Below, in pieces: positions 1-19,436 of a stretch of 24,000 nt of DNA. The notes beneath the pieces were generated by a model. It ran no database searches, was not told the origin of the DNA, and saw only the letters and a program-made list of their open reading frames with translations. The stretch comes from an uncultured Gammaproteobacteria bacterium (lineage in GTDB: Bacteria; Pseudomonadota; Gammaproteobacteria; Thiohalobacterales; Thiohalobacteraceae), in NCBI GenBank assembly GCA_963737555.1, contig CAVTTB010000008.1, positions 341,632 to 365,631 on the forward strand, given 5' to 3'. The position numbers were made by a program, and so were the translations under genes. Every line of letters begins with the position of its first letter. Positions within the stretch are counted from its first letter, which is position 1.

Positions 1-777
1 CGGGCAGTGCGGACTTCAATTACGGTGGCGCCGTCCTTGCCATTTTCTTCGCCGCGCTGCTGTGCGAGTTCGTCGACTCCAGTCTCGGCATGGGCTATGG
101 CACCACCCTCACGCCGCTGCTGTTGTTGTTCGGTTACGAGCCGTTGCAGATCGTGCCTGCGGTGCTGCTGAGCGAATTGATCACCGGCCTGGCCGCCGGC
201 GCCATGCACCAACGCGACGGCAACGTGGATTTCTTCCACGATGCCGCCGCGCGGCGCACCACGCTGTTGCTCGCATCGCTGAGCGCGGTCGGCGCGCTGG
301 CGGCGGTGGCGCTGGCCATCCAGATATCCAAATTCTGGTTGGGGATGTTCATCACCGGCATCGTCATATCCATGGGCGTGGTGATACTTGCCACGCGCCA
401 TCGGCAACTGCGTTACCGCACGGGCGGCATCGTCGCCATCGGCGCGGTGGCCGCGTTCAACAAAGGTTTGTCCGGCGGCGGCTACGGGCCGCTGGTGACC
501 GCGGGTCAAGTGGTGTCGGGATTGCCGGCCAAGCGCGCCGTTGCCGTGACCTCGGTGGCGGAGTCGGTGACCTGTCTGGTCGGTTTGCTCGGTTATCTCG
601 CTCGTCGGCAAAACCCTGGCGTGGGACCTTGCCGTGCCACTGACGATGGGCGCGTTGCTGTCGGTACCCATGGCCACCGTCACGATCCGTCATCTTCCCG
701 AGCATGTCGTGCGCGGCCTGGTCGGTACAGTCACGGTGGTGCTGGGTGTGGTGGCGTTGTTGAAACTGGTCAGTTAA
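1..777 (+). CDS. TauE/SafE-family anion (sulfite-exporter-like) membrane protein. The 5' end is cut by the window edge, and there is an apparent +1 frameshift near nt 598-607.
   Basis: From nt 3, the frame of ORF 90..989 reads ...AIFFAALLCEFVDSSLGMGYGTTLTPLLLLFGYEPLQIVPAVLLSELITG..., a hydrophobic multi-TM sequence. After about nt 600 this frame becomes Arg/Gly/Pro-rich nonsense. The next frame then reads GKTLAWDLAVPLTMGALLSVPMATVTIRHLPEHVVRGLVGTVTVVLGVVALLKLVS and stops at TAA 775-777. Confidence 0.6.
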
Positions 778-829
778 ATCGAATATCTAATCTAAGCGAA
801 TATATTTCTGGAAGAGAGGAGTCAGCACG

Positions 830-1501
830 ATGGACGCACTATGGGCAACCAATATCACCTGGCACGAAGGGCACGTCAAACGCGAGGATCGCGAGCAACT
901 GCTCGCCCAGACCGGCGCGACCGTCTGGTTCACCGGACTCAGCGGCTCCGGCAAGAGCACCATCGCCTTCACGCTCGAACACGCGTTGATCGAACGCGGT
1001 CGTCTGGCCTATGTGCTCGACGGCGACAATATCCGTCACGGCCTGAACAAGAACCTGGGCTTCAGCGCCGTCGATCGCGAAGAGAATATCCGTCGCATCG
1101 GCGAAGTCGCCAGACTGTTCGCGGATACCGGCGTGATCGCACTCACCAGCTTCATCAGCCCGTACCGCCAGGACCGCGATCTGGTGCGCCAGATGCATCG
1201 GCAGGACGGACTGCCCTTCATCGAAGTGCTGGTCGATGTCCCCATCGAGATCTGCGAAACGCGCGATCCCAAAGGCTTGTACAAAAAGGCGCGCGCCGCC
1301 TTGGCCGAAGGCAAGGGTATGGGCTTCACCGGCGTGGACGATCCGTACGAGCAGCCGCTGTCGGCCGAGATCGTCATCCGCAATGATCGGACCACGCCTC
1401 AGGAGGCCGCCGCGCAAGTGATCGCGTATATGGAGTCGCGGGGCATGTTGCCCGCCGTGTCGCGCGGCTTGGATACACCCAGAAGACACCAGAGCGTGTA
1501 G
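830..1501 (+). CDS. cysC: Adenylyl-sulfate (APS) kinase
   Basis: 223-aa ORF with P-loop GLSGSGKST and the motifs YVLDGDNIRHGLNKNLGFS, DREENIRRIGEVA, ISPYRQDR and DPKGLYKKAR. GAGGAG Shine-Dalgarno sequence a few nt upstream of the ATG. Confidence 0.93.
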   Translation: MDALWATNITWHEGHVKREDREQLLAQTGATVWFTGLSGSGKSTIAFTLEHALIERGRLAYVLDGDNIRHGLNKNLGFSAVDREENIRRIGEVARLFADTGVIALTSFISPYRQDRDLVRQMHRQDGLPFIEVLVDVPIEICETRDPKGLYKKARAALAEGKGMGFTGVDDPYEQPLSAEIVIRNDRTTPQEAAAQVIAYMESRGMLPAVSRGLDTPRRHQSV

Positions 1502-1570: not shown

Positions 1571-1604
1571 ACCGGCACCGTCAGAGTCAGATGACGGTGC
1601 CGGT
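1571..1604 (+). terminator. Perfect 13-bp stem / 8-nt loop hairpin downstream of cysC. Candidate terminator or regulatory structure; no U-tract follows.
   Basis: ACCGGCACCGTCA (1571-1583), loop gagtcaga, TGACGGTGCCGGT (1592-1604). The arms are exact reverse complements. Confidence 0.35.
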
Positions 1605-1652: not shown

Positions 1653-1683
1653 TATCGCATAACAAAAGCGAGGGGGTTGAGTC

Positions 1684-2839
1684 ATGTATTCCAACAGTAT
1701 CAATACGCGTTCCATGCTCGCCGATTATCATATCGAGGGCATGATGCTGCGTTATAGCGTATTCATCCCCAAACTCTATAACTTCTGTAAGTCGCTCGGT
1801 TTCGAGCCGGGGCGCATCATGCCGTCGCGCGCCTTCTGTTCCGATGAAAGTCAGGGCTTCCCGATCATCCTGATCACCAAGCACTTTGGAACCTTCCCGT
1901 TCAATCATGGCCAAGTGGGTGGCGTCATCGCCACCGATCGTCACGGTCCGCATGCGGAACATGGCAAGGATATGGTGATCATCCAGGCCAGCCATGTCGG
2001 CTATGATCCGGAAACGAAAACCTTCGGCACTTATCGGCGTCTGCAATGCGAGCAACATGATATGTCCGCCAATTGCGGCAAGATCGTGGCCGTGTTGGAC
2101 TGGTACCAGCAGGAGTATCGCTTCGCGCAGGAAAATATTTATCTTGAATCCCATGACGGGGGGTTCTATCTGATCATCGACAATCAGCTGCTCAACAATT
2201 CCCGACCCGAAGGTCTGTTCCTGAATATCGAGCGCATGGTGCAGCCGGACCTGGACGGCACCTTGCGCCCGACGCAATCCTTCAGCACCTCCAAATGCTA
2301 TCCCGCGTCCACTCAATTGAAGGAGCTGTTCGGCGTGGATGCCTGGCAGAAAAATGCCCGCACGGAGATCGGCGCGCATTTGCTGCCGGAGTTGTTCTGG
2401 TTCAAGCGTGAAGTAACGGGTGACGAGGAGGGCAAGGAACATCTGGAGCGTAATCTTCTCAAGCCGATGCCGTGGATCGTGACATCCGTTGCGCCGTTGC
2501 TGACGGCGGCTCAGGTCAATACGCAGGTCGAGTTCGATCGCACCTTCCGCACCATCGTCAAAGACCACAGTTATCGCGGCAAGAACGTGGTCTATCTGGC
2601 CGGACTCAATATCGACATCTCGCCGCAGCCCGGTCAATTGTTTCCGCTTGACCAAGTTCGTGCCGTGGGCGGCCTATATACAAGAGGCCAATGGCCACCA
2701 TTACACGCTGGAACAGGCGGAGCTGATGGACCGGCTCAAGGCGCAGAGCGACGAAAATCCTGATCAGATCGATCTGGAAAAGGCCATTACCGAAATGCGC
2801 CTGGCCGAGGAGATTCGCATCGCGCTGGCAGCGCCTTAG
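1684..2839 (+). CDS. LCIB-family-like / beta-carbonic-anhydrase-fold candidate protein (~384 aa). Apparent +1 frameshift near nt 2640-2651.
   Basis: ORF 1684..2763 continues in the next frame as ORF 2648..2839: ...ISPQPGQLFPL|TKFVPWAAYIQEANGHHYTLEQAELMDRL...AAP*. The candidate Zn site is FCSDESQG (Cys52-x-Asp54, nt 1837-1845), ASHVGYD (His104, nt 1993-1995) and ANCGK (Cys131, nt 2074-2076). This order and spacing match what I recall for the Cys/His/Cys site of LCIB-family proteins. The family assignment is from memory and has not been searched. Confidence 0.55.
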
Positions 2840-2860
2840 GCGCGTATGCGGTGCGTCCGT

Positions 2861-2908
2861 GTTCGAGATGTTGCGCATTGCATCTGTTCGCGATGTTGCG
2901 CATTGCAT
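2861..2908. repeat. Tandem direct repeat, 2 x 23 bp with 1 mismatch, in the spacer between the LCIB-like gene and the hyfB-like gene.
   Basis: GTTCGAGATGTTGCGCATTGCAT (2861-2883), ct, GTTCGCGATGTTGCGCATTGCAT (2886-2908), followed by a T6 run. Each unit contains the TGCGCA palindrome. Confidence 0.85.
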
Positions 2909-3033
2909 TTTTTAGCGATCCTGCGAGGGGTGATCTGAATAGACTGATGTGGCATAAATCCGTACAATCGCGGCTTCATCGCGTGTCCCCAGAAGTCAAT
3001 AATATCTTACCAAATTATCATCAGGATAATTAC

Positions 3034-5058
3034 GTGCCGCTGGCCTTAGTCGAATTTGCCGTTGCCGCCGCGCTCTGCTCCGGGCTGCTCGCGCTGGTCC
3101 TGTACCGGTTCACCTCATTACAAAAGTATGTTGCCTTCGGCTTGCTTGGCATCTCGGGTTTGTCTGCCCTGCTCGGCGGCATTCAGGTCCTGCTCGCCAA
3201 ATCGGTGCTGGTCGATGTCCTCATGATCGGTCTGCCGTGGCTGCACTGGCATCTGCGGCTGGATCCGCTGTCCGGTTTTTTCCTCGCCATCATCGGCATC
3301 GTCACGGTGGCCGTGTCCATCTATGGTCCCGCCTATGTGCGTGAATATGAGCACGGCAAACAGCCGCTGGCGGTACTGTCTTTGTTCACCGGGTTGTTTA
3401 TCGCCGGCATGATGCTGGTGGTGTTGGCCGATGACGCGTACGCGTTCATGGTCGCCTGGGAATTGATGTCGCTGTCGAGTTACTTCCTGGTGTCCTATCA
3501 ACACCAGCACGCGGCCAACCGGCGTGCTGCCTACCTTTATCTATTGATGGCGCATGTCGGCGGGCTGACCATCATGCTCGGTTTCGGCGTGTTGGCGGCC
3601 TTCGGCGGCGGCTTGACCTTCGACATCATGCGCAGCGCCGAGCTGTCGCTGTTCTGGTCCTCGACGGCTTTCTGTCTGGCGTTGTTCGGTTTCGGCATGA
3701 AGGCGGGGCTGGTGCCGGTGCACGCGTGGCTGCCCGAGGCGCACCCGGTCGCGCCCTCGCATATCTCGGCGTTGATGAGTGGCGTGATGTTGAAGATCGC
3801 CCTCTATGGTCTGATCCGGTTTAGCTACGATCTGATCGGCGAGGTCCACTGGGGCTGGGGCTTCGGCATGCTGATGCTGGGCGTGGCCTCCGGTCTGCTG
3901 GGCGTGCTGTACGCGATTGTGCAGACCGATCTGAAGCGGCTGCTGGCCTATTCGTCGGTGGAAAATATCGGCATCATTTTTATCGGCCTGGGCCTGTCGA
4001 TGATTTTCGTCGGCTCTGGCCACCAGGAACTGGGTGCGCTGGGCCTGATTGCATCCCTCTATCACATTCTCAATCACGCCTTGTTCAAGAGCCTGTTGTT
4101 CCTCGGCGCGGGTGCCGTGTTGCAAAGCACCCATGAAGGCAATCTGGAACAGATGGGCGGGCTGATTCATCGCATGCCGGTCACGGCCGTGTTGTTCCTG
4201 GTGGGGTGTATCAGTATCGCGGGCCTGCCGCCGTTCAATGGCTTCGTCTCCGAATGGCTGAGTTTCCAGACGGCACTTCAGGCGCCGATTCTGCAAGATG
4301 GCGTGTTGCGCGCCTTCATCCCGGTGGCTGCCGCAGCCTTGGCCTTGACCGGTGCGTTGGCGGCAGCGGCGTTCGTGAAGACCTTCGGCGTGGCATTCCT
4401 GGGTGTGGCGCGCAGCCGGCATGCGCGTCAGGCGCACGAGGTTGCGCGCAGCATGCAGGTCGGCATGGGACTGTTGGCGGCGCTGTGTCTGCTGTTCGGT
4501 ATCTTCCCCACGACCACCATCGGCGTGATCGATGCCATCCCAGAGTTGTTATTCAATAAGGGTCTGCCCAGCGCGTCCGCCGAAGGCTGGCTGTGGCTGA
4601 CGCCGATCGCACCGGAAGTTTCTTCCTACTCCGCACCGTTGGTCTTGATCGGTATCGCCCTGGCGTGGGGGCTCGGTTATGCGTTGCTGCACCCGCGTCG
4701 ACGCGAGCACCCGGTGCGGCGCAGCGCGCCTTGGGATTGCGGCTTCGGTCCGGTCAACCCGCGCATGCAATACACCTCGACCGCGTTCTCGATGCCGATT
4801 CGACGCATCTTCAAGCCGGTCTGGGATGTGCAAGAGCCGGTCGAGGAAACCCGCGATGCCAAACAGCCGCTGTTGCTGACCGGCATCCGCCACCAGATGC
4901 AGATCGGTGATCGCTCCTGGCCGGTCCTGTATGAACCTATTGCCCATTGGGTGCTGGTCGCGGCGCGCAAGATCGGCGGCATCCAGACCGGCAGTATCCG
5001 TACCTATCTGGCCTATTCGTTCTTCACGTTGCTGGTGTTGTTATGGCTGATTACCTAA
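3034..5058 (+). CDS. hyfB: Hydrogenase-4 subunit B-like, NuoL/antiporter-like membrane subunit (Ehr-type complex)
   Basis: 674 aa from GTG 3034, with AGGA 7 nt upstream. The ORF-track start at 2851 would translate the tandem repeat. Motifs: WELMSLSSYFLV, GLVPVHAWLPEAHPVAPSHISALMSGVMLKIALYG, LLAYSSVENIGII and a C-terminal PWDCGFG domain. The length matches HyfB-type proteins. Confidence 0.88.
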   Translation: MPLALVEFAVAAALCSGLLALVLYRFTSLQKYVAFGLLGISGLSALLGGIQVLLAKSVLVDVLMIGLPWLHWHLRLDPLSGFFLAIIGIVTVAVSIYGPAYVREYEHGKQPLAVLSLFTGLFIAGMMLVVLADDAYAFMVAWELMSLSSYFLVSYQHQHAANRRAAYLYLLMAHVGGLTIMLGFGVLAAFGGGLTFDIMRSAELSLFWSSTAFCLALFGFGMKAGLVPVHAWLPEAHPVAPSHISALMSGVMLKIALYGLIRFSYDLIGEVHWGWGFGMLMLGVASGLLGVLYAIVQTDLKRLLAYSSVENIGIIFIGLGLSMIFVGSGHQELGALGLIASLYHILNHALFKSLLFLGAGAVLQSTHEGNLEQMGGLIHRMPVTAVLFLVGCISIAGLPPFNGFVSEWLSFQTALQAPILQDGVLRAFIPVAAAALALTGALAAAAFVKTFGVAFLGVARSRHARQAHEVARSMQVGMGLLAALCLLFGIFPTTTIGVIDAIPELLFNKGLPSASAEGWLWLTPIAPEVSSYSAPLVLIGIALAWGLGYALLHPRRREHPVRRSAPWDCGFGPVNPRMQYTSTAFSMPIRRIFKPVWDVQEPVEETRDAKQPLLLTGIRHQMQIGDRSWPVLYEPIAHWVLVAARKIGGIQTGSIRTYLAYSFFTLLVLLWLIT

Positions 5059-5999
5059 ACGCCTGGCTGCTGGCGCTGTTGCAGACGCTGCTGTTCGTCG
5101 CCAGCGCACCGTTGCTGGCGGGTTGGATCAAGGTCGTCAAATGCCGCTTGCAGAACCGCACGGCGCCGTCGCTGTTGCAGCCGTATGCGGATCTGCGCAA
5201 GCTGTTCTCGAAGAATCTGGTGATGGCCGAAAACGCCTCGTGGATCTTCCGCGCCGCCCCCTATATTTTGCTGGGTTCGACCATTCTCGCCGCGGCGGTG
5301 GTCCCGTTGGTCGCCGTGCGACTGCCGACGGCGGCGATCGCCGACGTGATCGTGCTGGTCGGTTTTTTTGCGTTGGGGCGTTTCTTTCTGGCCCTGGCCG
5401 CGATGGATATCGGCACCGCCTTCGGCGGCATGGGCTCGTCGCGTGATATGACCGTCGCCTCGCTGGCGGAGCCGGCGATGCTGATGGCGGTGTTTACCCT
5501 GGCCATGACCGCGAACAGCACCAATCTGTCGACCGCCGTGCAGTTCACGCTGGAAAGTGGTTTGGTGTTGCGACCGTCCTTCATCTTCATCACTGTTGGA
5601 TTGATGATGGTAGCAGTGGCGGAGACCGGCCGTATCCCGATCGACAACCCGACCACCCATCTCGAATTGACCATGCTGCACGAGGCGATGATCCTCGAAT
5701 ACAGCGCCCGTCACTTGGCCTTGATCGAGTGGGCGGCGCAGATCAAGTTCATGGTCTTCGGTGTGTTGATCGCCAATATCTTCCTGCCCTGGGGCATTGC
5801 CACCGAATTCACGCCGCTGGCGCTGGCAACCGGCGCCTTCGCGATTGCACTGAAACTGCTGGTGCTGGTGGTCATACTGGCCATCTCCGAGACCATCGTC
5901 GCCAAGATGCGCCTGTTCAAAGCGCCTGAATATCTCAACATCGCCTATCTGCTGTGCCTGCTCGGCATGCTCAGCCACGTGATTCTGGAAGTGGGTTGA
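5043..5999 (+). CDS. hyfC: HyfC/HycD-like, NuoH-like membrane subunit
   Basis: 318 aa from ATG 5043, overlapping the hyfB stop. Motifs: LLQPYADLRKLF and ETGRIPIDNPTTHLELTMLHEAMILEYS (NuoH/HycD signature). Multi-TM. Confidence 0.88.
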   Translation: MADYLNAWLLALLQTLLFVASAPLLAGWIKVVKCRLQNRTAPSLLQPYADLRKLFSKNLVMAENASWIFRAAPYILLGSTILAAAVVPLVAVRLPTAAIADVIVLVGFFALGRFFLALAAMDIGTAFGGMGSSRDMTVASLAEPAMLMAVFTLAMTANSTNLSTAVQFTLESGLVLRPSFIFITVGLMMVAVAETGRIPIDNPTTHLELTMLHEAMILEYSARHLALIEWAAQIKFMVFGVLIANIFLPWGIATEFTPLALATGAFAIALKLLVLVVILAISETIVAKMRLFKAPEYLNIAYLLCLLGMLSHVILEVG

Positions 6000-6047
6000 G
6001 ACGATGATGCGTATGCAACCGGTCAGATCAGTAAGGCATAACCGTTC

Positions 6048-6728
6048 ATGAATAGCTTCGCGAATCTTAGCCTGTACGAACAGGCCATCATGATGCTGTC
6101 GGCCTTGGTGCTGTTCACCTCGTTCGCACTGCTGGCGCAGTCGCGCATGCTCAATATGATCAATGTGTTCGCTTGGCAGGGCGTGCTGCTGTCGGCCACC
6201 ACGGCGTTGGTCGCCTTGGTCTCCGGCCAGCATCATCTGTATACCTCCGCGCTGCTCACCATGGTGCTCAAGGCCATGTTGATCCCTTATATACTGCGCC
6301 ATCTCGTCATCCGTCTGGACATACACAGGGAAGTGGAGTCGGTGGTGCGCCCGGCCGTGGTGCTCATGTCCGGGGCCTCGCTGGTGGTGTTTTCCTACTG
6401 GGTCGCCTTGCCGATCGTACATTTGTCCACACTCATCACCCGCAACACGATCGCCGTGAGCATCGCCATCGTGCTGTTGGGCATGTTGATGATCATTACC
6501 CGCAGCAAGGCGGTCTCGCAGGTGGTGGGTTTCATGTCCATGGAGAACGGCCTGTTCTTCGCCGCGGTGGTGTCCACCTACGGCATGCCGATGGTGGTTG
6601 AGCTGGGCGTTGCGTTCGACGTGCTGGTGGCCGCCATTCTGTTCGGTGTGTTCTTCTTCCAAATCCGCGCCTCGATCGACTCACTGGACGTGGACCGTCT
6701 CAATCGCCTGACGGAGACGGATAAGTGA
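6048..6728 (+). CDS. hyfE: Hydrogenase-4 component E-like membrane subunit
   Basis: 226 aa, multi-TM. The C-terminal part, VVGFMSMENGLFFAAVV...VELGVAFDVLVAAILFGVFF...LDVDRLNRLTE, parallels E. coli HyfE (…LMENG…VEIGIATD…LDVNNLTALKG). Confidence 0.85.
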   Translation: MNSFANLSLYEQAIMMLSALVLFTSFALLAQSRMLNMINVFAWQGVLLSATTALVALVSGQHHLYTSALLTMVLKAMLIPYILRHLVIRLDIHREVESVVRPAVVLMSGASLVVFSYWVALPIVHLSTLITRNTIAVSIAIVLLGMLMIITRSKAVSQVVGFMSMENGLFFAAVVSTYGMPMVVELGVAFDVLVAAILFGVFFFQIRASIDSLDVDRLNRLTETDK

Positions 6729-8194
6729 ATTTTGCCTTGGAATTTATGCTGGGGTTGCCGCTGTTCGGCGCCATCCTGCTGGGCGCGTTGGGCCACAGCC
6801 GTAAGGCCGGCTGGATAAATATTGGTTTCTGCGCCGCGAGCTTTGTCGCAACCGTGCTGCTGGCCTTGGATGTGCTGGATCATGGCCCGCAGTTATTTCA
6901 TGATCGGCTGTTCTATGTCGACGCCTTCAACGTCTACCTGCTGGTGTTGACCGCGTTTGTCGGCATGACCACGGCGATTTTTTCGCGCCCGTACATGGAA
7001 CATGAGAAACAACGTGGTCGCCTGAACAACCGACGCATGCAGTTGTATCACTCGATGTACCAGGGCTTTCTGTTCGCCATGCTGTTGTGCTTGTCCACCA
7101 ACAATCTGGGCTTGCTGTGGGTGGCGATGGAGGGTGCGACCCTCGCCACGGTGTTATTGGTATCGCTGTACCGCACCCCCGAGGCGGTCGAGGCGGCGTG
7201 GAAATATTTTATCCTCTGCGGCGTCGGTATCGCCCAGGCGCTGTTCGGCACGGTGCTGTTGTTCTTCGCCGCCGAGCGCATCATCGAGCATCGCGACGAC
7301 GCCCTGCTGTGGAATGTATTGCACGAGAATGCGCACCTGATGGACCCGACGGTATTGTCGCTGGCGTTCGTGTTCCTGCTGGTGGGTTACGGTACCAAGG
7401 TGGGTCTGGTGCCCTTGCACAACTGGTTGCCGGATGCGCATTCCGAAGGTCCGACACCGATGTCGGCGGTGCTGTCGGGTCTGCTGTTGAACGTCGCCCT
7501 GTATGCCTTGGTGCGGGTGAAGATGTTGGTCGATGGTTCCTTGGATACCGAACTGGCCGGCCAGCTGATGATGGGTTTCGGCATGGCGTCGTTCCTGGTC
7601 GCGAGTCTGTTCTTGCATCGGCAACGCGACATCAAACGCATGTTCAGTTACTCCTCCATTGAACACATGGGACTGATGACCTTTGCCTTCGGCCTCGGCG
7701 GTCCACTGGCGACCTTCGGCGCGCTGTTGCACATGACCGTGCATTCGCTGACCAAGTCGGCGATCTTCGTCACCGTCGGTCATGCCGCACATATCGCCGG
7801 TACGCAATCCATCGAGAAGATTCGCGGTCTGATCCACACGCAGCCCACGGTCGGCTGGGGCCTGTTGATCGGCACCACGGCCATCGCCGGCTTTCCACCC
7901 TTCGGACTTTTCACCAGCGAGTTCCTGTTGCTCACCGCGACCATGAAGAGCTGGCCCTGGCTGACCTTGCCCCTGCTGGTCGGCCTGGTGGTTGCCTTTG
8001 CCGGCCTGTTCCGGCATCTGCATCCGATGGTTTATGGTGACAAGCCGGAAGGTCAGCTGGCCGTCAAAGCCAATATGTGGCCGGTGGCGATCCACCTGGC
8101 GCTGGTGTTGTGGCTGGGCCTGTCGATTCCTGAGTTCTTATCGCGCTGGTTTGATCAGGCAACGCTGTTGATCTCCGGCAGTTCATGGTTGTGA
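6725..8194 (+). CDS. hyfF: Hydrogenase-4 subunit F-like, NuoN/NuoM antiporter-like membrane subunit
   Basis: 489 aa. GTG 6725 overlaps the hyfE stop. Motifs: GTKVGLVPLHNWLPDAHSEGPTPMSAVLSGLLLNVALYAL, MFSYSSIEHMG and IAGFPPFGLFTSEF. Confidence 0.88.
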   Translation: MNFALEFMLGLPLFGAILLGALGHSRKAGWINIGFCAASFVATVLLALDVLDHGPQLFHDRLFYVDAFNVYLLVLTAFVGMTTAIFSRPYMEHEKQRGRLNNRRMQLYHSMYQGFLFAMLLCLSTNNLGLLWVAMEGATLATVLLVSLYRTPEAVEAAWKYFILCGVGIAQALFGTVLLFFAAERIIEHRDDALLWNVLHENAHLMDPTVLSLAFVFLLVGYGTKVGLVPLHNWLPDAHSEGPTPMSAVLSGLLLNVALYALVRVKMLVDGSLDTELAGQLMMGFGMASFLVASLFLHRQRDIKRMFSYSSIEHMGLMTFAFGLGGPLATFGALLHMTVHSLTKSAIFVTVGHAAHIAGTQSIEKIRGLIHTQPTVGWGLLIGTTAIAGFPPFGLFTSEFLLLTATMKSWPWLTLPLLVGLVVAFAGLFRHLHPMVYGDKPEGQLAVKANMWPVAIHLALVLWLGLSIPEFLSRWFDQATLLISGSSWL

Positions 8195-9814
8195 GCATGG
8201 AAACTGAAACCACGAGCATCGCAGCGCCGTTCGCCTGGCTGCCCAAGTTCCGGGAAACGCTGCAGAGCGAACACGTGCTGCTGCACCCCGACGCGGAGCA
8301 GACGCTCCATCCGGCGCGCACCATGGCCGCCGATCACGAAGACTGGGGGCGCATCGCGCAACAGGCGGCGAAATTCAAATTACGCTGGTGTGCCGGCTGG
8401 GCACAGGATGTGGGTGAGCAGATCCAGATCAACACCTGCTTCGTCTATCAGGGCGATTATCTGGTGCTGCGCACGGCTGTCGACAAGTCTACGTCGATTA
8501 TGCCCTCACAGACACCGGCCTACATCGCGGCGGACCGGCCCGAGCGGCATATGCAGGATATGTTCGGCATCGTCTTTACCGATCACCCGGACAGCCGCCG
8601 TTGGACGCGACACATGGCCTGGGGCGACGGCGATTTTCCGCTGCGCAAGAGTTTCCCGGTTGCAGGTCATCCGCCGGCGATCACCCCGCCCAACAATGAA
8701 TATAAATTCCTGACAGCACAGGGTCCGGGCGTATACGAGATTCCGGTCGGGCCGGTGCATGCCGGCATCATCGAACCCGGACACTTCCGCTTTCAGGCCG
8801 TCGGCGAGACGGTGCTGAATCTGGAAGAACATCTCGGCTATGTGCACAAGGGCATCGAGAAGATCGCCGAAGGGCGCGATCCCGCGGGGCTTGCGCGTCT
8901 GGCCGGTCGTGTCTCCGGTGATACCACGGTCGCGCACACCTGGGCCGCCTGCATGGCGATGGAGCGCGCCGCCGGCATCGAAGTGCCGCCGCGTGCGTTG
9001 CTGCTGCGCGCGGTGATGGCCGAGAGTGAACGCATCGTCAATCACCTGTGGGATCTCGCCATGGTGTGCAACGATGTGGCGTTCGCCTTTCCGTTTTATC
9101 AATTCAGTCGCCTGCGCGAGCAATGGCTGCGCGTGTTGGCGGCCGGCTTTGGTCACCGTCTGATGATGGACCGCATCGTGCCTGGTGGTGTCGCGACCGA
9201 TATCACGGCGGCGGCGGCCGAGCAACTGAATACGCTGTGTGTCGAGGTCCGCAAGGAGCTCGACGGCATGATGCACGTCTTCGACGACAACGCCTCGTTC
9301 CAGGATCGCGTGGTCACCACCGGCATCCTCAGTCCGGAATTGGCGCAGCTCTACGGCACTGTCGGTTATGTCGGCAAGGCCAGCGGCCTGTGTTTCGACG
9401 TGCGTCAGGATGCGCCTTATTCACCCTATGATCGCTTCAAAGTTGTAGCCCCGTGTTACAGCGCACGGCGATGTCGATGCTCGTGTCAGGGTGCGCATCG
9501 ATGAGATCAATGCCTCATCAGAGCTGTTGCAGCGCTTGTTGAACGAGCGGGGCCTGACCGCGGATACGCTTGCCGCGCCTTGGTCCGCGCCGGCAGACGG
9601 AGCGGAAGGTGTCGGCATGGTCGACGGTTGGCGCGGCGAGATTTTCGCCTATGTGAGTTTCGCGGCCGACAATCGCATTGCGCGTTTTTTCCCGCGCGAT
9701 CCGAGCTGGACCACCTGGCCGGCGTTGGAAAAACTCATTCGCGGCAATATCGTGCCGGACTTTCCGGTGTGCAATAAATCCGTCAACGGTTCGTATTCCG
9801 GTCATGATCTTTAA
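8185..9814 (+). CDS. NuoC-NuoD-like 'large subunit' homologous to HyfG/HycE but lacking all four NiFe cysteine ligands (Ehr-type, non-hydrogenase). Apparent +1 frameshift in the C-run at 9449-9452.
   Basis: Conserved core motifs: VGPVHAGIIEPGHFRF and EEHLGYVHKGIEK. The L1 site reads RVSGDTTVAH (nt 8908-8937) where RxCGxCxxxH is expected. The C-terminal site reads NGSYSGHDL* (nt 9785-9814) where DPCxxCxDR is expected. ORF 8185..9504 continues as ORF 9491..9814 one frame over: ...PYDRFKVVA|RVTAHGDVDARVRVRIDEINASSELL... ATG 8197 is an alternative start. Confidence 0.85.
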
Positions 9815-9893
9815 TACACTTTTATCCAGCCGAGGACGTGCAGTCGGCGGCTTGAATGCCGCGGACTCGCAGCTGCATGCACAAGGTCATCCC

Positions 9894-10403
9894 ATGCTGA
9901 GAATCCTCAATAAGATCCTCAAGACTGGCAACCTCACCGAGGCCCTGCCCGAAGACGAGCGCAAGGTACTCGAAGAGATCGGTGCGCAGGTCAAGGCCGG
10001 CATCGGCAAACGCTTTGCCGGCAGTCTGGCGATCCGCGCCGTGGATGCCGGTTCCTGCAACGGCTGCGAACTGGAAATTCACGCGCTCAACAATGCCATC
10101 TACAATCTGGAACGCTTCGGTATTCACTTCGTTGCCTCGCCGCGGCATGCCGATATGCTGTTGGTGACCGGTCCCGTGTCGCGGCATATGCAGACCGCGT
10201 TGATCCGCACCTACGAGGCCACGCCCGAACCCAAGCTGGTGATCGCCGTCGGTGAGTGCGGTGCCAATGGCGGCGAATTCGGCGTGAGCTATGCCTCCTG
10301 CGGTGCCGTGAGCAATGTCATCCCCGTCGATGCTGTCATCCGTGGCTGCCCACCCACCCCGTTAGACCTGATGCGCGGCATCCTGCAGGCCATCGGCGAC
10401 TGA
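9894..10403 (+). CDS. NuoB/HycG/HyfI-like small subunit with intact [4Fe-4S] ligand set
   Basis: 169 aa from ATG 9894. The ORF-track start at 9678 overlaps the large-subunit 3' end. Motifs: GSCNGCELE, VASPRHADMLLVTGPVS, VAVGECG and IRGCPPTP. Confidence 0.88.
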   Translation: MLRILNKILKTGNLTEALPEDERKVLEEIGAQVKAGIGKRFAGSLAIRAVDAGSCNGCELEIHALNNAIYNLERFGIHFVASPRHADMLLVTGPVSRHMQTALIRTYEATPEPKLVIAVGECGANGGEFGVSYASCGAVSNVIPVDAVIRGCPPTPLDLMRGILQAIGD

Positions 10404-11082: not shown

Positions 11083-12018
11083 TCAACTATCTTCGCTATC
11101 GAGTTTGCCTTCTATAAAAACCCGGCTGGCCAGAATATCTTCGGCTTCGATGGTCATCAGGTCGACTTTGCTAAGTGATTTTTGTGCGTTGGCAAAGAGT
11201 CGATTGGCCTGACGCAGACGCGCGCGATCCAGAGCATTGCGCACCGAGCGCGCGTTGGCGAAATGTGCCAGCTTCATGCGTAGCGTGATGTACTCGAAGA
11301 AGGCCTTTTCAGCATCGGGGCTGAAGCGATAGTTTTGCGCCGCCAACATCAGCCTGGCGATGTGCAGCAATTCTTCTGCGCTGTAATCTGGGAAATCGAT
11401 GTGGTGCGCGATGCGCGAGCGCATACCGGGATTGCTGTGGAAGAATTTGTCCATGCGATCTTTGTAACCGGCCAGAATCACCACCAGATCGTCGCGGTTG
11501 TTTTCCATGACCTGGAGTAGAATCTCGATCGACTCGGCACCGTAGTCGCGCTCGTTTTCGGGCTTATAGAGATAATAGGCTTCGTCGATGAACAGCACGC
11601 CACCCATGGCTTTCTTGATCACTTCCTTGGTTTTCGGCGCGGTGTGGCCGATGTATTGGCCCACCAGATCGTCACGCGTGACGGAGACCAGATGGCCTTC
11701 GCGCACATAGCCCAGACGATGCAGGATCTCGGCCATACGCATGGCTACAGTGGTCTTGCCGGTACCGGGGTTGCCGGTAAAATTCATATGCAGTGTCGGT
11801 GTCTCGGAGGTCAGCGCAAATTGCTTGCGCAGACGATCCACCAATAGCAGAGCCGCAATTTCCCGAATACGGGTTTTGACGGGCACTAAGCCAATCAATT
11901 CGCGGTCGAGTTTGTCGAGAACTTCTTTTACATTCGAGGCTTCAAATTCGGTTTCAAGATTGACAGGGGTATCATCCGCCAAGATGGCATCACCCTGTGG
12001 GTTTTCTGAATTATTCAT
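11083..12018 (-). CDS. cbbX: CbbX, AAA+ red-type RuBisCO activase
   Basis: 311 aa from ATG 12018 (MNNSENPQ...). Motifs: Walker [75 protein letters not shown] and [17 protein letters not shown]. Confidence 0.93.
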
Positions 12019-12059
12019 ATAATTTTCCAACAACGCCGATAGTCGCGGGTTAGTAAAGT

Positions 12060-12083
12060 GGCGGGTGAAAGAGTTCACCCGCC
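12060..12083 (-). other. Intercistronic 10-bp perfect stem-loop between cbbS and cbbX
   Basis: GGCGGGTGAA (12060-12069), loop agag, TTCACCCGCC (12074-12083). No clear U-tract follows on the transcribed strand. Confidence 0.5.
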
Positions 12084-12102
12084 AGCACGTCAACTTACTC
12101 GA

Positions 12103-12537
12103 TCAGTAACGCTCGCCTTCCGATTTGTCAGTAGCATAGGAGTGGATGCTGTAACGCATAGTGCGCCCCTCAGTTTCCTGACGCACCAGGCCAAAGCCCG
12201 GCTCCTTCTTGGGCCGATTGACAAGGTACGACATGCACACGCTCTCTACACCGCGCACAGCGCTGAATGCGCTGACACGGATGTAATGATTCGGGAATGT
12301 CTTACGACAATTGTTTACTTCCAGCAGGATTCCGGCTGGATCTTTAAGATCGAACATCGGATTGCCAAACATTTCCCAATAGGTGTTGCGTGGGTGCGGG
12401 TCGTCGGTGTATTCGACGCTCAGCGCCCAGCCCTTGCCCAGTGCATATTTGATTTGCGCAGTGATTTGCACATCGGTCAGATCAGGCAGAAAGGAAAACT
12501 GTCCTTGGGTAATGCGATTGCCGAGATTGGTCATCAT
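12103..12537 (-). CDS. cbbS: RuBisCO small subunit (red-type, with C-terminal extension)
   Basis: 144 aa. Motifs: [50 protein letters not shown] and [13 protein letters not shown] ribosome-binding site upstream. Lies 20 nt after the cbbL stop. Confidence 0.95.
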
Positions 12538-12557
12538 AATCAGATTCTCCTTAATGA

Positions 12558-14223
<1,666 letters not shown>

Positions 14224-15213
14224 ATGCGCCATTCTACATTCCGCCAATTAGAGGTCTTTGAGGCCCTTGCCCGCCTCGGCAGTTTCACGCGCGCGGCAGA
14301 GGAGCTGTTCCTCACTCAGCCTACCGCGAGCATGCAGATCAAGAAGCTCACCGATACGGTAGGTCTGCCGCTCTACGAACAAATCGGTAAACGAATTTTT
14401 CTTACCGATGCCGGCCGGGCGTTGCATGCCACCTGTCGTGAGATCTTCGGTGCCCTGGACAGTTTCGAAATGCAGGCCGCTGATATGAAGGGATTGAAAC
14501 AGGGTAAGCTGCGGCTGTCGGTCGTCAGTACGGCAAAGTATTTTGCGCCACGCCTGCTGGGTAGTTTCTGCTTGAAATATCCCGGTATTGAGGTGTCGCT
14601 CAAAGTGAGCAACCGCGAACGGATTCTGGAACGACTGAACGACAATCAGGACGATCTGTATATTCTGGGGCTACCGCCGGACGGTCTGGATGCGATCGCC
14701 GAACCGTTCATGGAAAATTTGCTGGTTGTGTTGGCGCCCATTCATCATCCGCTGGCCGGCGAACGCAACATTACGCTGGCACGCATCGCCAAGGAGCCGT
14801 TCCTCGTTCGTGAACCCGGTTCCGGTACACGGATAGCGGTGGAGCGCCTGTTCAAGGAACAAGGGTTGTCCATCAATGTGCGCATGGAGCTCGGCAGTAA
14901 CGAAGCGATCAAACAGTCCATCGTCGGCGGTTTAGGCATTTCTGTGTTGTCGCGACACACGCTGGCACTGGATGCCGCGATGGGACAACTTACGATTCTC
15001 GATGTGCAAAATTTTCCAATCAAACGCCAGTGGCATGTTGCCTATCCCACAGGCAAGCAACTGACCACCGTTGCCCAGACCTTTCTTGAGTATCTGCGCC
15101 ATGCAGCAGAGGTGGTGCAGGACATTCCCTGCCACCATGCCGAACAGGCCGGCGGCTGCCCGTTGATCACGATACCGGTTAAAACCGCTAAACGTAAGTC
15201 GCGCGGTAATTAG
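14224..15213 (+). CDS. cbbR: LysR-family transcriptional regulator CbbR (RuBisCO operon activator)
   Basis: 329 aa. N-terminal helix-turn-helix FRQLEVFEALARLGSFTRAAEELFLTQPTASMQIKKLTDTVGLPLYEQIGKRIFLTDAG. Divergent from cbbL. Confidence 0.88.
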   Translation: MRHSTFRQLEVFEALARLGSFTRAAEELFLTQPTASMQIKKLTDTVGLPLYEQIGKRIFLTDAGRALHATCREIFGALDSFEMQAADMKGLKQGKLRLSVVSTAKYFAPRLLGSFCLKYPGIEVSLKVSNRERILERLNDNQDDLYILGLPPDGLDAIAEPFMENLLVVLAPIHHPLAGERNITLARIAKEPFLVREPGSGTRIAVERLFKEQGLSINVRMELGSNEAIKQSIVGGLGISVLSRHTLALDAAMGQLTILDVQNFPIKRQWHVAYPTGKQLTTVAQTFLEYLRHAAEVVQDIPCHHAEQAGGCPLITIPVKTAKRKSRGN

Positions 15214-18849: not shown

Positions 18850-19359
18850 GGTAAATGCGAATCGGATTGCGGTGGCAGGCGCATAGCCAGCACCGCCTGT
18901 TCCTGCTCTTTGCGCAGGCGATCCAAGTGCGCGGCGAGCGCCGGATCGGACAACGGCGAGAATACTGGCCGCGTACAGGGCCGCGTTGGCGGCGCCCGCC
19001 TCACCGATGGCAAAGGTCGCGACCGGCACGCCTTTGGGCATTTGCACAATCGACAGCAACGAGTCCATGCCTTTCAGATATTTCGACGGCACCGGCACAC
19101 CGAGCACCGGCACGGTGGTCTTGGCCGCCAACATGCCGGGCAGATGCGCCGCGCCGCCGGCGCCGGCGATGATGCAGGCGATGCCGCGGCTGCGGGCGGT
19201 CACGGCATAGTCGAACAATAGATCGGGGGTGCGGTGTGCGGAGACGACCCGGGCCTCATAGGCGATGCCGAGTTGTTCGAGCATGCTGGCGGCATGCTGC
19301 ATGATGTCCCAGTCACTGCTGCTGCCCATGACCAGGCCGATGCGGGGTGTTTCGCTCAT
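18846..19359 (-). CDS. purE: N5-CAIR mutase. Apparent +1 frameshift near 18951-18954.
   Basis: From ATG 19359: [23 protein letters not shown]...SAHRTPDL...[24 protein letters not shown]...[10 protein letters not shown]. The native-looking C-terminus [34 protein letters not shown] continues one frame over (ORF 18846..19049). Confidence 0.85.
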
Positions 19360-19436
19360 GTTCGTGGTGCCCTTGTAGACGGACCCAAAACCCGGGAAAC
19401 GCCGCATTCTAACAGATTGGGATCGGGGGCCAGCAT

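What the first reader, a model, noticed from the sequence alone, without database searches (positions are those of the whole stretch)
1684..2839. Bacterial LCIB-family-like protein with a Cys-x-Asp / His / Cys candidate zinc site
The N-terminal half reads ...RAFCSDESQGFPIILITKHFGTFPFNHGQVGG...MVIIQASHVGYDPETKTFGTYRRLQCEQHDMSANCGKIVAVLDW... The order is Cys52-x-Asp54, then His104, then Cys131. The spacing is about 52 and 27 residues. Both resemble what I recall for the zinc ligands of the algal/diatom LCIB family, a divergent beta-CA fold involved in CO2 recapture. Cys122 is an alternative third ligand. A bacterial member placed at the head of a complex-I-like gene cluster would be functionally informative for the whole family. 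The protein also has an acidic C-terminal helical tail (…LEQAELMDRLKAQSDENPDQIDLEKAITEMRLAEEIRIAL), which could be a docking element.
Basis: partly seen in the sequence, partly recalled or inferred. Interest (0 to 1): 0.66.

Follow-up and report, generated by a model that had tools for sequence, protein, structure and literature searches.

The report
Bacterial LCIB-like candidate carbonic anhydrase
The gene encodes an uncharacterised, enlarged bacterial relative of the algal LCIB carbonic-anhydrase family with a fully conserved Cys/His/Cys zinc site, common in CO2-fixing bacteria, but in this window it is broken by a one-base frameshift that is probably an assembly error, and its link to the neighbouring complex-I-like genes holds only in some lineages.

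Summary
A gene starts at 1684. Its N-terminal 120 residues are homologous to the LCIB family: Pfam PF18599 scores 25.1 bits against a cutoff of 25, hhalign gives 93.8%, and the seven best Foldseek PDB hits are all LCIB structures. Cys52, His104 and Cys131 align with the family's zinc ligands. They are 3 of only 8 invariant columns across 29 homologs reaching down to 28% identity. Asp54 is at least 90% conserved; Cys122 is not conserved.

The span 1684-2839 is not one ORF. One extra base at 2646-2650 shifts the frame, and the quoted tail lies in the next frame. SufB and the HyfG-like gene in the window are also frameshifted, and corrected dN/dS is 0.06, so an assembly error is likelier than decay.

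The protein is about 384 aa, soluble, and belongs to a long-form subfamily found in at least 578 species genomes, mostly chemolithoautotrophs, and in some algae. I found no paper characterising it.

Adjacency to the HyfBCEFGI-type cluster, which lacks NiFe cysteines, recurs in this lineage and in Nitrospirales. It is absent from the other 75 of 80 genome loci and from 80 related clusters. The best reading is a stand-alone cytosolic CO2/bicarbonate enzyme; coupling to the membrane complex is speculative.

The parts
1684..2839 (+). Long-form LCIB-like gene (384 aa once corrected). In the window it is interrupted by a +1 frameshift: frame 1 runs 1684-2763, and the true C-terminus is read in frame 2 up to the stop at 2837-2839.
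   Evidence: Homologs are 379-384 aa. Pfam PF18599 hit. Fold match to LCIB structures.
1670..1676 (+). Shine-Dalgarno-like GAGGGGG, 7 nt upstream of the ATG at 1684.
   Evidence: Read directly from the sequence. The start position agrees with all homologs, which begin MYS/MYT....
1837..1845 (+). Codons for Cys52-Ser53-Asp54: the first candidate zinc ligand and the catalytic-type Asp.
   Evidence: C52 is invariant and D54 at least 90% conserved in A2. They align to CSDE of PtLCIB4 and CRDE of bacterial short LCIBs.
1993..1995 (+). Codon for His104, in the motif ASHVG: the second candidate zinc ligand.
   Evidence: Invariant. Aligns to GSHVG of PtLCIB4 and PHI(A/G) of the short forms.
2074..2076 (+). 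Codon for Cys131, in the motif NCGK: the third candidate zinc ligand.
   Evidence: Invariant. Aligns to the second Cys of CCG in PtLCIB4 and to ACG of the short forms.
2646..2650 (+). Site of the single extra base (GCTTG) that causes the frameshift.
   Evidence: Alignment to L091. Deleting any one of these bases restores QLFPLTKFVPWAA.
1571..1604 (+). Perfect 13-nt inverted repeat (hairpin) between the APS-kinase gene and the LCIB-like gene.
   Evidence: I1. Its function was not tested.
2860..2916 (+). 25-nt tandem duplication (2860-2884 and 2885-2909). The second copy forms a terminator-like hairpin (2890-2906) followed by a T-run.
   Evidence: Consensus matches only. The window segment ~2847-2913, which holds the repeat, has no aligned counterpart in L091.
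2940..2968 (+). Sigma-70-like promoter match (TAGACT-17-TACAAT) ahead of the HyfB-like gene.
   Evidence: This is a weak consensus match, within what shuffled sequence gives by chance.
3034..10403 (+). Context: a HyfBCEFGI-type complex-I-like cluster. Genes: HyfB-like 3034-5058, HyfC/NuoH-like 5043-5999, HyfE-like 6048-6728, HyfF-like 6725-8194, HyfG/NuoCD-like 8185-9814 (frameshifted at ~9444-9458), HyfI/NuoB-like 9894-10403. The large subunit lacks the NiFe cysteines.
   Evidence: The large subunit is intact at 540 aa in relatives L092 and L093.
11083..14033 (-). Context: cbbX (from 11083; the start codon was not pinned down and lies at about 12010-12036), RuBisCO small subunit (12103-12537) and form I large subunit (12558-14033), convergent with the Hyf-like cluster.
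   Evidence: ORF translations. Cluster names. The same genes are annotated with Pfam families in L092.

Best explanation
The gene encodes a soluble, cytoplasmic, roughly 384-residue protein. It is an enlarged ('long-form') member of the LCIB / theta-carbonic-anhydrase superfamily.

Shown here:
- Its N-terminal ~140 residues carry a Cys52 / His104 / Cys131 site, with Asp54 two residues after the first Cys.
- This is the same arrangement as the zinc site in LCIB-family structures and in beta-CA-like enzymes.

Inferred:
- The protein binds zinc and interconverts CO2 and bicarbonate in the cytoplasm.
- This would equilibrate imported bicarbonate (SulP-type transporters are its commonest neighbours) with the CO2 needed by non-carboxysomal form I RuBisCO. 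In Nitrospira and Nitrospina it would serve the CO2- and HCO3-using enzymes of the reductive TCA cycle.
- It acts as a stand-alone enzyme. In this lineage the gene has simply settled in a carbon-fixation island (cbb genes plus a non-hydrogenase Hyf-like complex).
- The one-base frameshift in the window is most likely an assembly indel, so the organism probably makes the full-length protein.
For: Homology and active site:
- Pfam PF18599: E=1.3e-5, at the gathering threshold.
- Profile A2 finds only LCIB-family PDB chains and puts C52/H104/C131 on chain positions C61/H117/C141 of PtLCIB4. That equals C46/H102/C126 with an offset of 15. The offset is checked by the H88A entry 5b5z.
- hhalign against 27 canonical bacterial LCIB_C_CA proteins: 93.8%, E=1.7e-7, matching C45/H104/C128.
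- AlphaFold model: pLDDT 82.7, pTM 0.83.
- Foldseek: the top 7 PDB hits are all LCIB, LCIC or PtLCIB4, with probability 1.00 and target-normalised TM 0.58-0.72.
- The three candidate ligands are 3 of 8 invariant columns in 29 diverse sequences.

Soluble: there is no TM segment.

Selection: dN/dS is 0.059 and 0.063 against intact relatives.

Assembly error is plausible:
- SufB is split between two frames.
- The HyfG-like gene is split at 9444-9458 but intact in relatives.
- The window comes from a 593,769-bp contig.

Carbon link:
- At least 578 species genomes carry the gene. The best 80 are mostly sulfur or iron oxidisers, Nitrospirales and Nitrospina.
- Within 10 kb in those 80 genome loci: SulP in 13, RuBisCO or CbbQ/O genes in about 8.
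- Neighbourhoods include CbbQ-CbbO-LysR-...-SulP next to the gene and CbbQ-CbbO-FBA-PsiE-LCIB-like-Hyf.

Stand-alone behaviour: the 146 immediate neighbours fall into 145 different Pfam families.
Against: - No activity or metal data exist for any member.
- From memory, recombinant Chlamydomonas LCIB/LCIC showed no CA activity in vitro while the diatom homologs did (Jin et al. 2016, PNAS; the paper was not readable here). Family membership therefore does not guarantee catalysis.
- The Arg of the beta-CA Cys-x-Asp-x-Arg dyad is absent; position 56 is Ser.
- Only the N-terminal ~120 residues align by sequence. The remaining ~250 residues are related only through the predicted fold.
- The Pfam score is marginal, and the 89%-identical relative L093 scores 22.9, below the cutoff.
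- hhalign against a single short LCIB sequence was not significant.
- Some hosts (Competibacteraceae) are not classical autotrophs; there the gene sits beside hypCDE.
- A close relative (L092) carries a clearly decayed copy, so real pseudogenisation in this window cannot be excluded.
Confidence: 0.6

Rival explanations
1. The LCIB-like protein is the CO2-hydrating peripheral subunit of the adjacent non-hydrogenase Hyf-like (Ehr-type) membrane complex. Ion or proton translocation by the complex-I-like antiporter subunits would drive one-way CO2-to-bicarbonate conversion. This would be analogous to CupA/B on cyanobacterial NDH-1 and to DabA on DabB.
For: - The gene sits directly upstream of the HyfB-like gene (PF00361) in the window and in three relatives: L086, L091, L093.
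- In Nitrospirales it sits downstream of HyfI on the same strand. It is 41 nt away in L060 and comes after SulP in L049, L052 and L055. This holds in 5 of 5 Nitrospirales loci with enough flank.
- The two arrangements differ, and the Nitrospirales Hyf proteins are not the closest relatives of the window's (38-50% identity against 52-77% for other clusters). The adjacency therefore probably arose twice.
- In this lineage the Hyf cluster lies beside cbb genes in three different layouts.
- The large subunit has lost its NiFe cysteines, so the complex is not a hydrogenase.
- DabA uses the same Cys2His plus Asp chemistry on a PF00361 partner (PMC13144422).
Against: - None of 80 related Hyf-like clusters from metagenomes has an LCIB-like gene in its flanks.
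- 75 of the 80 genome loci carrying the LCIB-like gene have no co-linear Hyf-type cluster nearby. L082 has only weak Hyf-like hits (28-35% identity) on the opposite strand, and the immediate neighbours are very diverse.
- L092 keeps an intact Hyf cluster behind a decayed LCIB-like gene.
- In the window, a 194-nt spacer with a terminator-like hairpin and a promoter-like site separates the two genes.
- The protein has no membrane-inserting helices like the DabA finger.
- The C-terminal acidic helices are conserved in members that have no Hyf neighbour.
Confidence: 0.12
2. The protein binds CO2, bicarbonate or a metal but is not catalytic. It acts as a sensor or regulator of inorganic-carbon status.
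For: - Both the long and the short bacterial LCIB forms occur fused to response-regulator receiver domains: P0121, and P0366/P0371 with PF00072.
- From memory, Chlamydomonas LCIB/LCIC lacked in-vitro activity.
- The beta-CA dyad Arg is absent.
- Two LysR regulators, one in a cluster named 'low CO2-responsive transcriptional regulator', lie in the same window.
Against: - The full Cys/His/Cys plus Asp set is invariant or nearly so. This is what a catalytic site predicts.
- Receiver fusions are rare: 3 were seen among thousands of members.
- Receiver fusions are equally compatible with a regulated enzyme.
Confidence: 0.12
3. It is a zinc hydrolase of the beta-CA type acting on a sulfur analogue of CO2, such as a carbonyl sulfide or CS2 hydrolase, or it has some other role in sulfur metabolism.
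For: - Many hosts are sulfur oxidisers.
- In the window the upstream genes are a TauE sulfite exporter and APS kinase.
- Frequent neighbours are SulP 'sulfate permeases' and MsrA.
- From established knowledge: COS and CS2 hydrolases are beta-CA-fold enzymes.
Against: - The family is also present in nitrite oxidisers (Nitrospira, Nitrospina) and in photosynthetic eukaryotes: Paulinella, dinoflagellates and a cryptophyte. What these share is carbon fixation, not sulfur oxidation.
- Every structural match is to CCM proteins.
- There are repeated links to cbb genes.
Confidence: 0.06
4. In this particular organism the gene is a recent, real pseudogene. The family's function is unaffected by this.
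For: - The frameshift is present in the window sequence.
- Three substitutions cluster within ~12 nt of the indel.
- A second gene of the same cluster, the HyfG-like gene, is also frameshifted.
- A close relative has a decayed copy at the same position.
Against: - SufB is also frameshifted in the window. SufB is normally indispensable where SUF is the Fe-S assembly system. This argues for assembly indels across the contig.
- dN/dS is 0.06.
- The 62 codons after the shift differ from P0001 only in the last three residues, with no further lesion.
Confidence: 0.15

Closest known systems
LCIB/LCIC of Chlamydomonas and PtLCIB3/4 and theta-CA of diatoms (Pfam PF18599 LCIB_C_CA; PDB 5k5w, 5b5x, 5b5y, 6kfs)
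   Same: - The Cys-(x)-Asp ... His ... Cys ligand order is the same, and the local motifs match (CSDE, SHVG, CG). Spacing is similar: 52/27 here, 56/24 in PtLCIB4 and 59/24 in bacterial short forms.
- These are the best and only convincing structural matches.
- It is found in CO2-fixing organisms and next to inorganic-carbon genes.
   Different: - About 384 aa against a ~225-240-aa domain. Only residues ~19-137 align by sequence.
- The Pfam score sits at the threshold.
- It forms a separate, well-conserved clade (bacterial members at least 59% identical among the top 120 hits) that coexists with canonical short LCIB genes in the same Nitrospirales loci.
- No activity, oligomer or localisation data exist.
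DabA/DabB (DAB, PF10070 + PF00361), the PMF-coupled vectorial carbonic anhydrase of chemolithoautotrophs
   Same: - A beta-CA-like Cys2His zinc site with an adjacent Asp.
- The gene sits next to a PF00361 complex-I-type antiporter subunit.
- It occurs in chemolithoautotrophs.
   Different: - No PF10070 match.
- No Arg in the dyad.
- No transmembrane finger helices (compared with PMC13144422).
- The partner would be a six-subunit Hyf-like complex and not a single DabB.
- Adjacency is the exception in this family, not the rule.
CupA/CupB (ChpY/ChpX) on cyanobacterial NDH-1MS/MS'
   Same: The concept only: a soluble CO2-hydrating protein attached to a complex-I-type membrane arm (recalled knowledge).
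   Different: - No sequence or fold match was found here.
- From memory, the Cup proteins have different zinc ligation.
- Association with the complex is not shown for this protein.
Classical beta-carbonic anhydrases (PF00484) and SulP-CA pairs or fusions
   Same: - Cys/His/Cys plus Asp chemistry.
- Repeated adjacency to SulP-family anion transporters. From recalled knowledge, SulP-CA fusions are known.
   Different: - No PF00484 hit.
- No CxDxR Arg, and no HxxC spacing (H104 to C131 is 27 residues).
- No classical beta-CA among the 50 Foldseek hits listed.
Ehr-type 'energy-converting hydrogenase related' complexes (the neighbouring cluster, not the finding itself)
   Same: - Six genes, HyfB/C/E/F/G/I-like.
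- The large subunit has RVSGDTTVAH and DFPVCNKS where NiFe hydrogenases have their Cys motifs.
- The equivalent A. ferrooxidans cluster was judged non-hydrogenase (PMC7735108).
   Different: The function of these complexes is unknown. Here the cluster sits among cbb genes and beside an LCIB-like gene. I did not find this described in the searchable literature.

Membership tests
LCIB/LCIC family (Pfam PF18599, LCIB_C_CA; theta-CA) | Match to the family HMM above its curated threshold | tested here: inconclusive
   The corrected window protein scores 25.1 bits against a cutoff of 25 (E=1.3e-5) and covers only profile positions 7-126 of 223. The 89%-identical L093 protein scores 22.9, below the cutoff. 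Roughly half of the homologs carry a precomputed PF18599 hit.
LCIB/LCIC family (Pfam PF18599, LCIB_C_CA; theta-CA) | Profile-level homology to bona fide members | tested here: met
   hhalign of A2 against 27 canonical bacterial LCIB_C_CA proteins gives 93.8%, E=1.7e-7, over 115 columns. hmmsearch of A2 against the PDB returns only LCIB-family chains; the best is 5b5y at E=0.0026. Negative controls of weaker design: phmmer, profile A1, and hhalign against a single sequence found nothing significant.
LCIB/LCIC family (Pfam PF18599, LCIB_C_CA; theta-CA) | LCIB-type fold | tested here: met
   The AF2 model (pLDDT 82.7) has 5b5y, 6kfs, 5b5z, 5k5w and 5b5x as its top 7 Foldseek hits. E ranges from 5.7e-7 to 1.3e-3, probability is 1.00, and target-normalised TM is 0.58-0.72. 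The next hit has E=0.12. This rests on a predicted model, not an experimental structure.
LCIB/LCIC family (Pfam PF18599, LCIB_C_CA; theta-CA) | Cys / His / Cys zinc ligands, with Asp two residues after the first Cys, at the homologous positions | tested here: met
   C52/H104/C131 align to PtLCIB4 chain positions C61/H117/C141 and to C45/H104/C128 of the short bacterial forms. They are invariant in A1 and A2, and D54 is at least 90% conserved. The identity of the PtLCIB4 ligands (C46/H102/C126) is recalled from Jin et al. 2016; that paper was not readable here.
LCIB/LCIC family (Pfam PF18599, LCIB_C_CA; theta-CA) | Single compact domain of ~220-240 residues | tested here: not met
   The protein is 384 aa. 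The C-terminal ~250 residues do not align to the family by sequence. Canonical 237-241-aa forms exist as separate genes next to it in L039 and L060. It is therefore a distinct long-form subfamily.
LCIB/LCIC family (Pfam PF18599, LCIB_C_CA; theta-CA) | Zinc content and CO2 hydration activity | not testable with these tools
   This needs purified protein, with ICP-MS and MIMS or stopped-flow measurements.
Classical beta-carbonic anhydrase (PF00484) | CxDxR and HxxC motifs, and a PF00484 match | tested here: not met
   There is no PF00484 hit at E<=1. The motif is C52-S-D54-E-S56, so there is no Arg. H104 and C131 are 27 residues apart. No classical beta-CA appears among the 50 Foldseek hits listed.
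DabA (PF10070) of DAB inorganic-carbon pumps | PF10070 match, membrane-inserting helices, and obligate pairing with a PF00361 partner | tested here: not met
   No PF10070 hit. The maximum 19-residue hydropathy is 1.24, so there is no TM helix. A PF00361 gene is an immediate neighbour in only 3 of 146 flanking ORFs, and none of 80 related Hyf-like clusters carries the gene.
Group 4 [NiFe] hydrogenase (for the neighbouring HyfG-like large subunit) | N-terminal RxCGxCxxxH and C-terminal DPCxxC nickel-binding cysteines | tested here: not met
   The sequence has RVSGDTTVAH and DFPVCNKS instead, both in this lineage and in Nitrospirales. This fits the Ehr-type or non-hydrogenase class (PMC7735108).

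The most novel reading that the evidence does not exclude
The long-form LCIB-like protein, a SulP-type anion transporter and the non-hydrogenase Hyf-like (Ehr-type) complex together form a previously unrecognised energy-coupled inorganic-carbon uptake module in non-carboxysomal chemolithoautotrophs.

In this reading the complex-I-like membrane arm makes CO2 hydration by the LCIB-like subunit one-directional. That would be a third, independent invention of the NDH-1/CupA and DabAB principle, and it would finally give Ehr complexes a function.

The evidence does not exclude it:
- The three gene types are linked pairwise. SulP is the commonest neighbour both of LCIB-like genes and of Hyf-like clusters.
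- All three are co-linear in Nitrospirales.
- In this lineage the cluster sits among cbb genes.
Probability: 0.1. Interest if true: 0.9.

Novelty: new variant of a known kind. Interest (0 to 1): 0.55.

Why it matters
LCIB is central to the algal CO2-concentrating mechanism, yet its in-vivo chemistry and regulation remain debated.

- **A tractable model.** This is a large, highly conserved bacterial sister clade carrying the same metal site. It is found in at least 578 species genomes of sulfur, iron and nitrite oxidisers, and also in dinoflagellates, a cryptophyte and Paulinella. That offers a bacterial system in which to test what this site does.
- **A possibly overlooked enzyme.** It points to a carbonic-anhydrase-type protein that may be missing from carbon budgets of non-carboxysomal chemolithoautotrophs and nitrite oxidisers.
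- **A testable lead on Ehr complexes.** Its recurrent, though not universal, neighbourhood with SulP transporters, cbb genes and non-hydrogenase Hyf-like complexes gives a concrete hypothesis for those enigmatic complexes.
- **Limits.** The family resemblance itself is already picked up by automatic Pfam/UniRef annotation for some members. What is new is the subfamily, its distribution and its genomic context, not a new kind of protein.

Tried and rejected
- **Single-sequence searches of the PDB.** phmmer with P0001 and a profile of close homologs (A1) found no LCIB or CA. Only the broader profile A2 reached them.
- **Single-sequence AlphaFold.** The model was useless at pLDDT 34. The alignment-based run was used instead.
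- **hhalign of A2 against one short LCIB sequence.** Not significant, probability 0.8%. It needed a 27-sequence alignment.
- **NCBIfam.** No family for the protein.
- **Cys122 as alternative ligand.** Rejected because it is not conserved.
- **Obligate operon with the Hyf-like cluster.** Rejected on four grounds: none of 80 related clusters carries the gene; the immediate neighbours are diverse; L092 has a decayed copy beside an intact cluster; and the spacer contains terminator-like and promoter-like sites.
- **A true [NiFe] hydrogenase next door.** Rejected because the nickel-binding cysteines are absent.
- **Programmed frameshifting.** Considered and dismissed. Intact relatives encode the protein in one frame, and unrelated genes in the window (SufB, the HyfG-like gene) carry similar breaks.
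- **Literature.** Eight full-text searches were run. Seven found no paper on bacterial LCIB-like proteins or on an LCIB-Hyf/Ehr link. The eighth was swamped by unrelated 'Ehr...' terms. The key LCIB structure paper (PMC5187666) and the theta-CA paper (PMC5024579) are not held, so ligand numbering and activity statements from them are from memory.
- **Zinc-site geometry.** It could not be measured because model coordinates are not exposed.
Full report
**1. The observation**

An ORF begins at ATG 1684, preceded by GAGGGGG at 1670-1676.

The stated span 1684-2839 is 1156 nt and is not a single reading frame.
- The frame opened at 1684 stops at 2763, giving 359 aa.
- The quoted acidic tail is read in the next frame and ends at 2837-2839.
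- A 96%-identical metagenomic relative (L091) encodes an uninterrupted 384-aa protein, P0001. Against it the window has one extra base.
- blastx against all relatives shows the frame switch at 2630-2655.
- Deleting any one base of 2646-2650 restores the family-wide ...QLFPLTKFVPWAAY... and gives a protein with 6 differences from P0001.

**2. Is the frameshift real?**

Evidence that it is an assembly error:
- The frame-corrected gene has dN/dS of 0.059 against L091 and 0.063 against L093.
- After the shift there is no further lesion.
- The HyfG-like gene changes frame at 9444-9458, although it is an intact 540-aa gene in relatives.
- SufB is split, with SufBD_N in one ORF and SUFBD_core in an overlapping ORF in another frame.
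- The window comes from a 593,769-bp contig.

Indel errors across the assembly are the simplest explanation. Against this, a close relative (L092) carries a truly decayed copy at the same position, with stops and a large internal deletion. I therefore keep real pseudogenisation at about 15%.

**3. What the protein is**

Sequence evidence:
- Pfam gives one hit, PF18599 LCIB_C_CA: E=1.3e-5, 25.1 bits against a cutoff of 25, residues 27-145 on profile positions 7-126 of 223.
- NCBIfam gives nothing.
- phmmer and a close-homolog profile find nothing in the PDB.
- A profile of 29 diverse homologs (A2, down to 28% identity) retrieves only LCIB-family chains: 5b5y, 5b5z, 6kfs, 5k5w, 9vzj/9w05 and 5b5x. 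The best E-value is 0.0026.
- A profile-profile comparison with 27 canonical short bacterial LCIB_C_CA proteins gives 93.8% probability and E=1.7e-7 over residues 19-137.

Structural evidence:
- An alignment-based AlphaFold model is confident, with pLDDT 82.7 and pTM 0.83.
- Its seven best Foldseek matches in the PDB are all LCIB, LCIC or PtLCIB4 structures. Probability is 1.00 and target-normalised TM is 0.58-0.72. The eighth hit has E=0.12.
- No classical beta-CA appears among the 50 hits listed.

**4. The candidate zinc site**

- In the HMMER alignment, C52 (FCSDE), H104 (ASHVG) and C131 (NCGK) fall on LCSDE, GSHVG and CCG of PtLCIB4, at chain positions 61, 117 and 141.
- The H88A mutant entry 5b5z fixes the numbering offset at 15. 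These positions are therefore C46, H102 and C126, which I recall as the zinc ligands reported by Jin et al. 2016. That paper is not held here.
- The same three positions are C45, H104 and C128 in the short bacterial forms, and they are invariant there too.
- Within the long-form family, only 8 columns are invariant across A2. C52, H104 and C131 are three of them, and D54 is at least 90% conserved.
- Cys122 is not conserved.
- The Arg of the beta-CA CxDxR dyad is missing; position 56 is Ser.
- PtLCIB4 His88 aligns with H90, inside a low-confidence, His-rich loop (residues 76-88 have pLDDT below 50).

**5. A distinct long-form subfamily**

- Members are 376-414 aa (most 379-384) against ~240 aa for the canonical domain. 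Only the first ~140 residues align by sequence.
- The protein has no transmembrane segment.
- The C-terminal helices with the NPDQIDLE motif are conserved family-wide and are predicted as part of the fold.
- The family is large: 2599 hits at 90% clustering, 406 clusters at 50% identity, and at least 578 species genomes.
- All members with a name are called 'hypothetical protein', apart from automatic LCIB-domain labels.
- The hosts listed are mostly chemolithoautotrophs: Acidiferrobacterales, Chromatiales, Thiogranum, Thiohalomonadales, Sedimenticola, Nitrospirales and Nitrospina. Competibacteraceae also carry it.
- Longer versions with N-terminal extensions come from Paulinella micropora, two dinoflagellates and a cryptophyte.
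- A few members are fused to receiver domains.

**6. Genomic context**

In the window, the order is:
1. TauE and APS kinase, upstream.
2. A hairpin at 1571-1604.
3. The LCIB-like gene.
4. A 194-nt spacer. It holds a 25-nt tandem repeat, a terminator-like hairpin with a T-run (2890-2916) and a weak promoter-like site (2940-2968).
5. A HyfBCEFGI-type cluster at 3034-10403.
6. cbbX and the genes for the RuBisCO small and large subunits (cbbS, cbbL), convergent.
7. Two LysR genes.

The HyfG-like large subunit has RVSGDTTVAH and DFPVCNKS where a hydrogenase has its nickel-binding cysteines. The complex is therefore not a hydrogenase. The A. ferrooxidans hyfBCEFGI cluster was judged the same way (PMC7735108).

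Close relatives keep the LCIB-like gene in front of the cluster:
- L091: directly upstream of the HyfB-like gene.
- L086: with a Na+/H+ exchanger gene in between.
- L093: preceded by CbbQ-CbbO-FBA-PsiE.

In L092 the gene is a wreck while the cluster is intact.

Nitrospirales show a different arrangement on one strand:
- Hyf - (a CarboxypepD_reg-like gene) - SulP - long LCIB-like in L049, L052 and L055.
- Hyf - long LCIB-like - short canonical LCIB in L039 and L060.

Elsewhere the link disappears:
- The 146 immediate neighbours in 75 genomes fall into 145 Pfam families. SulP/STAS (5-6) and MsrA (5) lead.
- Within 10 kb in the 80 genome loci, SulP occurs in 13 and cbb genes in about 8.
- From the other side, 80 related Hyf-like clusters from metagenomes contain no LCIB-like gene and no RuBisCO. 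SulP is again their commonest neighbour, in 8 of 140 flanking ORFs. It sits directly upstream of HyfB in several of the closest relatives.

**7. Interpretation**

The best-supported reading is a soluble LCIB-type, beta-CA-like zinc enzyme that interconverts CO2 and bicarbonate in the cytoplasm of CO2-fixing bacteria.
- Shown: homology, fold, conserved ligands, purifying selection, and enrichment near inorganic-carbon and cbb genes.
- Inferred: zinc binding, catalysis and physiological direction.

The attractive alternative is that the protein is the hydrating head of the Hyf-like complex, in the manner of DabA on DabB (PMC13144422) or CupA on NDH-1.
- For it: two apparently independent adjacencies, and the cbb setting.
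- Against it: the many solitary copies, the 0-of-80 result, the L092 pseudogene, the lack of membrane helices, and the terminator-like and promoter-like sites in the spacer.
- I put it at roughly 10-12%.

Sensor and sulfur-hydrolase readings are minor rivals.

**8. Novelty and score**

I found no paper on bacterial LCIB-like proteins or on an LCIB-Hyf/Ehr link. Automatic annotation already labels some members as LCIB-domain proteins.

This is a new, uncharacterised variant of a known kind. It has a useful distribution and a testable context, and it deserves moderate interest, scored 0.55.

Noticed in passing
window 8185-9814 (frame change at ~9444-9458): The HyfG/NuoCD-like large-subunit gene is frameshifted in the window. 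It is an intact 540-aa gene in close relatives L092 and L093.
   Followed up: yes
window 21158-22696 and 21849-22613: SufB is split between two overlapping reading frames: SufBD_N in the first ORF and SUFBD_core in the second. This suggests indel errors are spread across the contig.
   Followed up: partly
window 17689-19407 (-) and 90-989 (+): PurE and PurK read as one 572-aa ORF with an odd-looking linker. The TauE-like ORF loses its Pfam match after residue ~171. Both may be further frame errors.
   Followed up: no
window 3034-10403; also L092, L093, L039-L060: The HyfBCEFGI-type cluster lacks the NiFe-binding cysteines (RVSGDTTVAH and DFPVCNKS), so it is not a hydrogenase. In this lineage it lies beside cbb genes in three different layouts: cbbLSX convergent in the window, cbbLSX-FBA upstream in L092, and cbbQO-FBA upstream in L093.
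   Followed up: partly
L096, L097, L099, L100, L098, L111, L160; L049/L052/L055; L004/L017: SulP-family transporters are the single most frequent neighbour both of Hyf-like (Ehr-type) clusters and of long LCIB-like genes. In several of the closest relatives of the window's cluster, SulP sits directly upstream of HyfB, in the place where the LCIB-like gene sits here.
   Followed up: partly
L039:7966-8685 and L060:3765-4490: In two Nitrospirales loci a canonical short LCIB_C_CA gene (PF18599, E=5.5e-31 and 2.6e-34) lies immediately downstream of the long-form gene. This gives a long/short pair reminiscent of LCIB/LCIC.
   Followed up: partly
L092:5465-6006: A decayed remnant of the LCIB-like gene, with in-frame stops and residues ~172-336 deleted, lies between FBA and an intact Hyf-like cluster in a close relative.
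   Followed up: yes
P0124, P0139, P0140, P0141 (also P0131, P0135, P0153): The long-form family has eukaryotic members with N-terminal extensions. P0124 is from Paulinella micropora, P0139 from Togula jolla, P0141 from Polarella glacialis and P0140 from Hemiselmis tepida. They are 42-49% identical to the bacterial proteins. This points to transfer between bacteria and algae.
   Followed up: partly
P0121; P0366, P0371: Both long and short bacterial LCIB-family proteins occur fused to a C-terminal response-regulator receiver domain.
   Followed up: no
window 2860-2909: A perfect-register 25-nt tandem duplication (TGTTCG[A/C]GATGTTGCGCATTGCAT[C/T]) lies in the spacer between the LCIB-like and HyfB-like genes. 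The window segment ~2847-2913 that holds it has no aligned counterpart in the 96%-identical relative L091.
   Followed up: partly
window 14224-15213 and 15592-16503: Two LysR-type regulators lie in tandem, divergent from cbbL. Members of the first one's 90% cluster are annotated 'low CO2-responsive transcriptional regulator'.
   Followed up: no
L001/L013/L016 (Competibacter): In Competibacter the LCIB-like gene is divergently adjacent to the hydrogenase maturation genes hypC-hypD-hypE.
   Followed up: no
L043:~12080-12350 and L051:~11460-11730: Short fragments of a second LCIB-like copy (partial duplicates or pseudogene pieces) lie downstream of the full-length gene.
   Followed up: no
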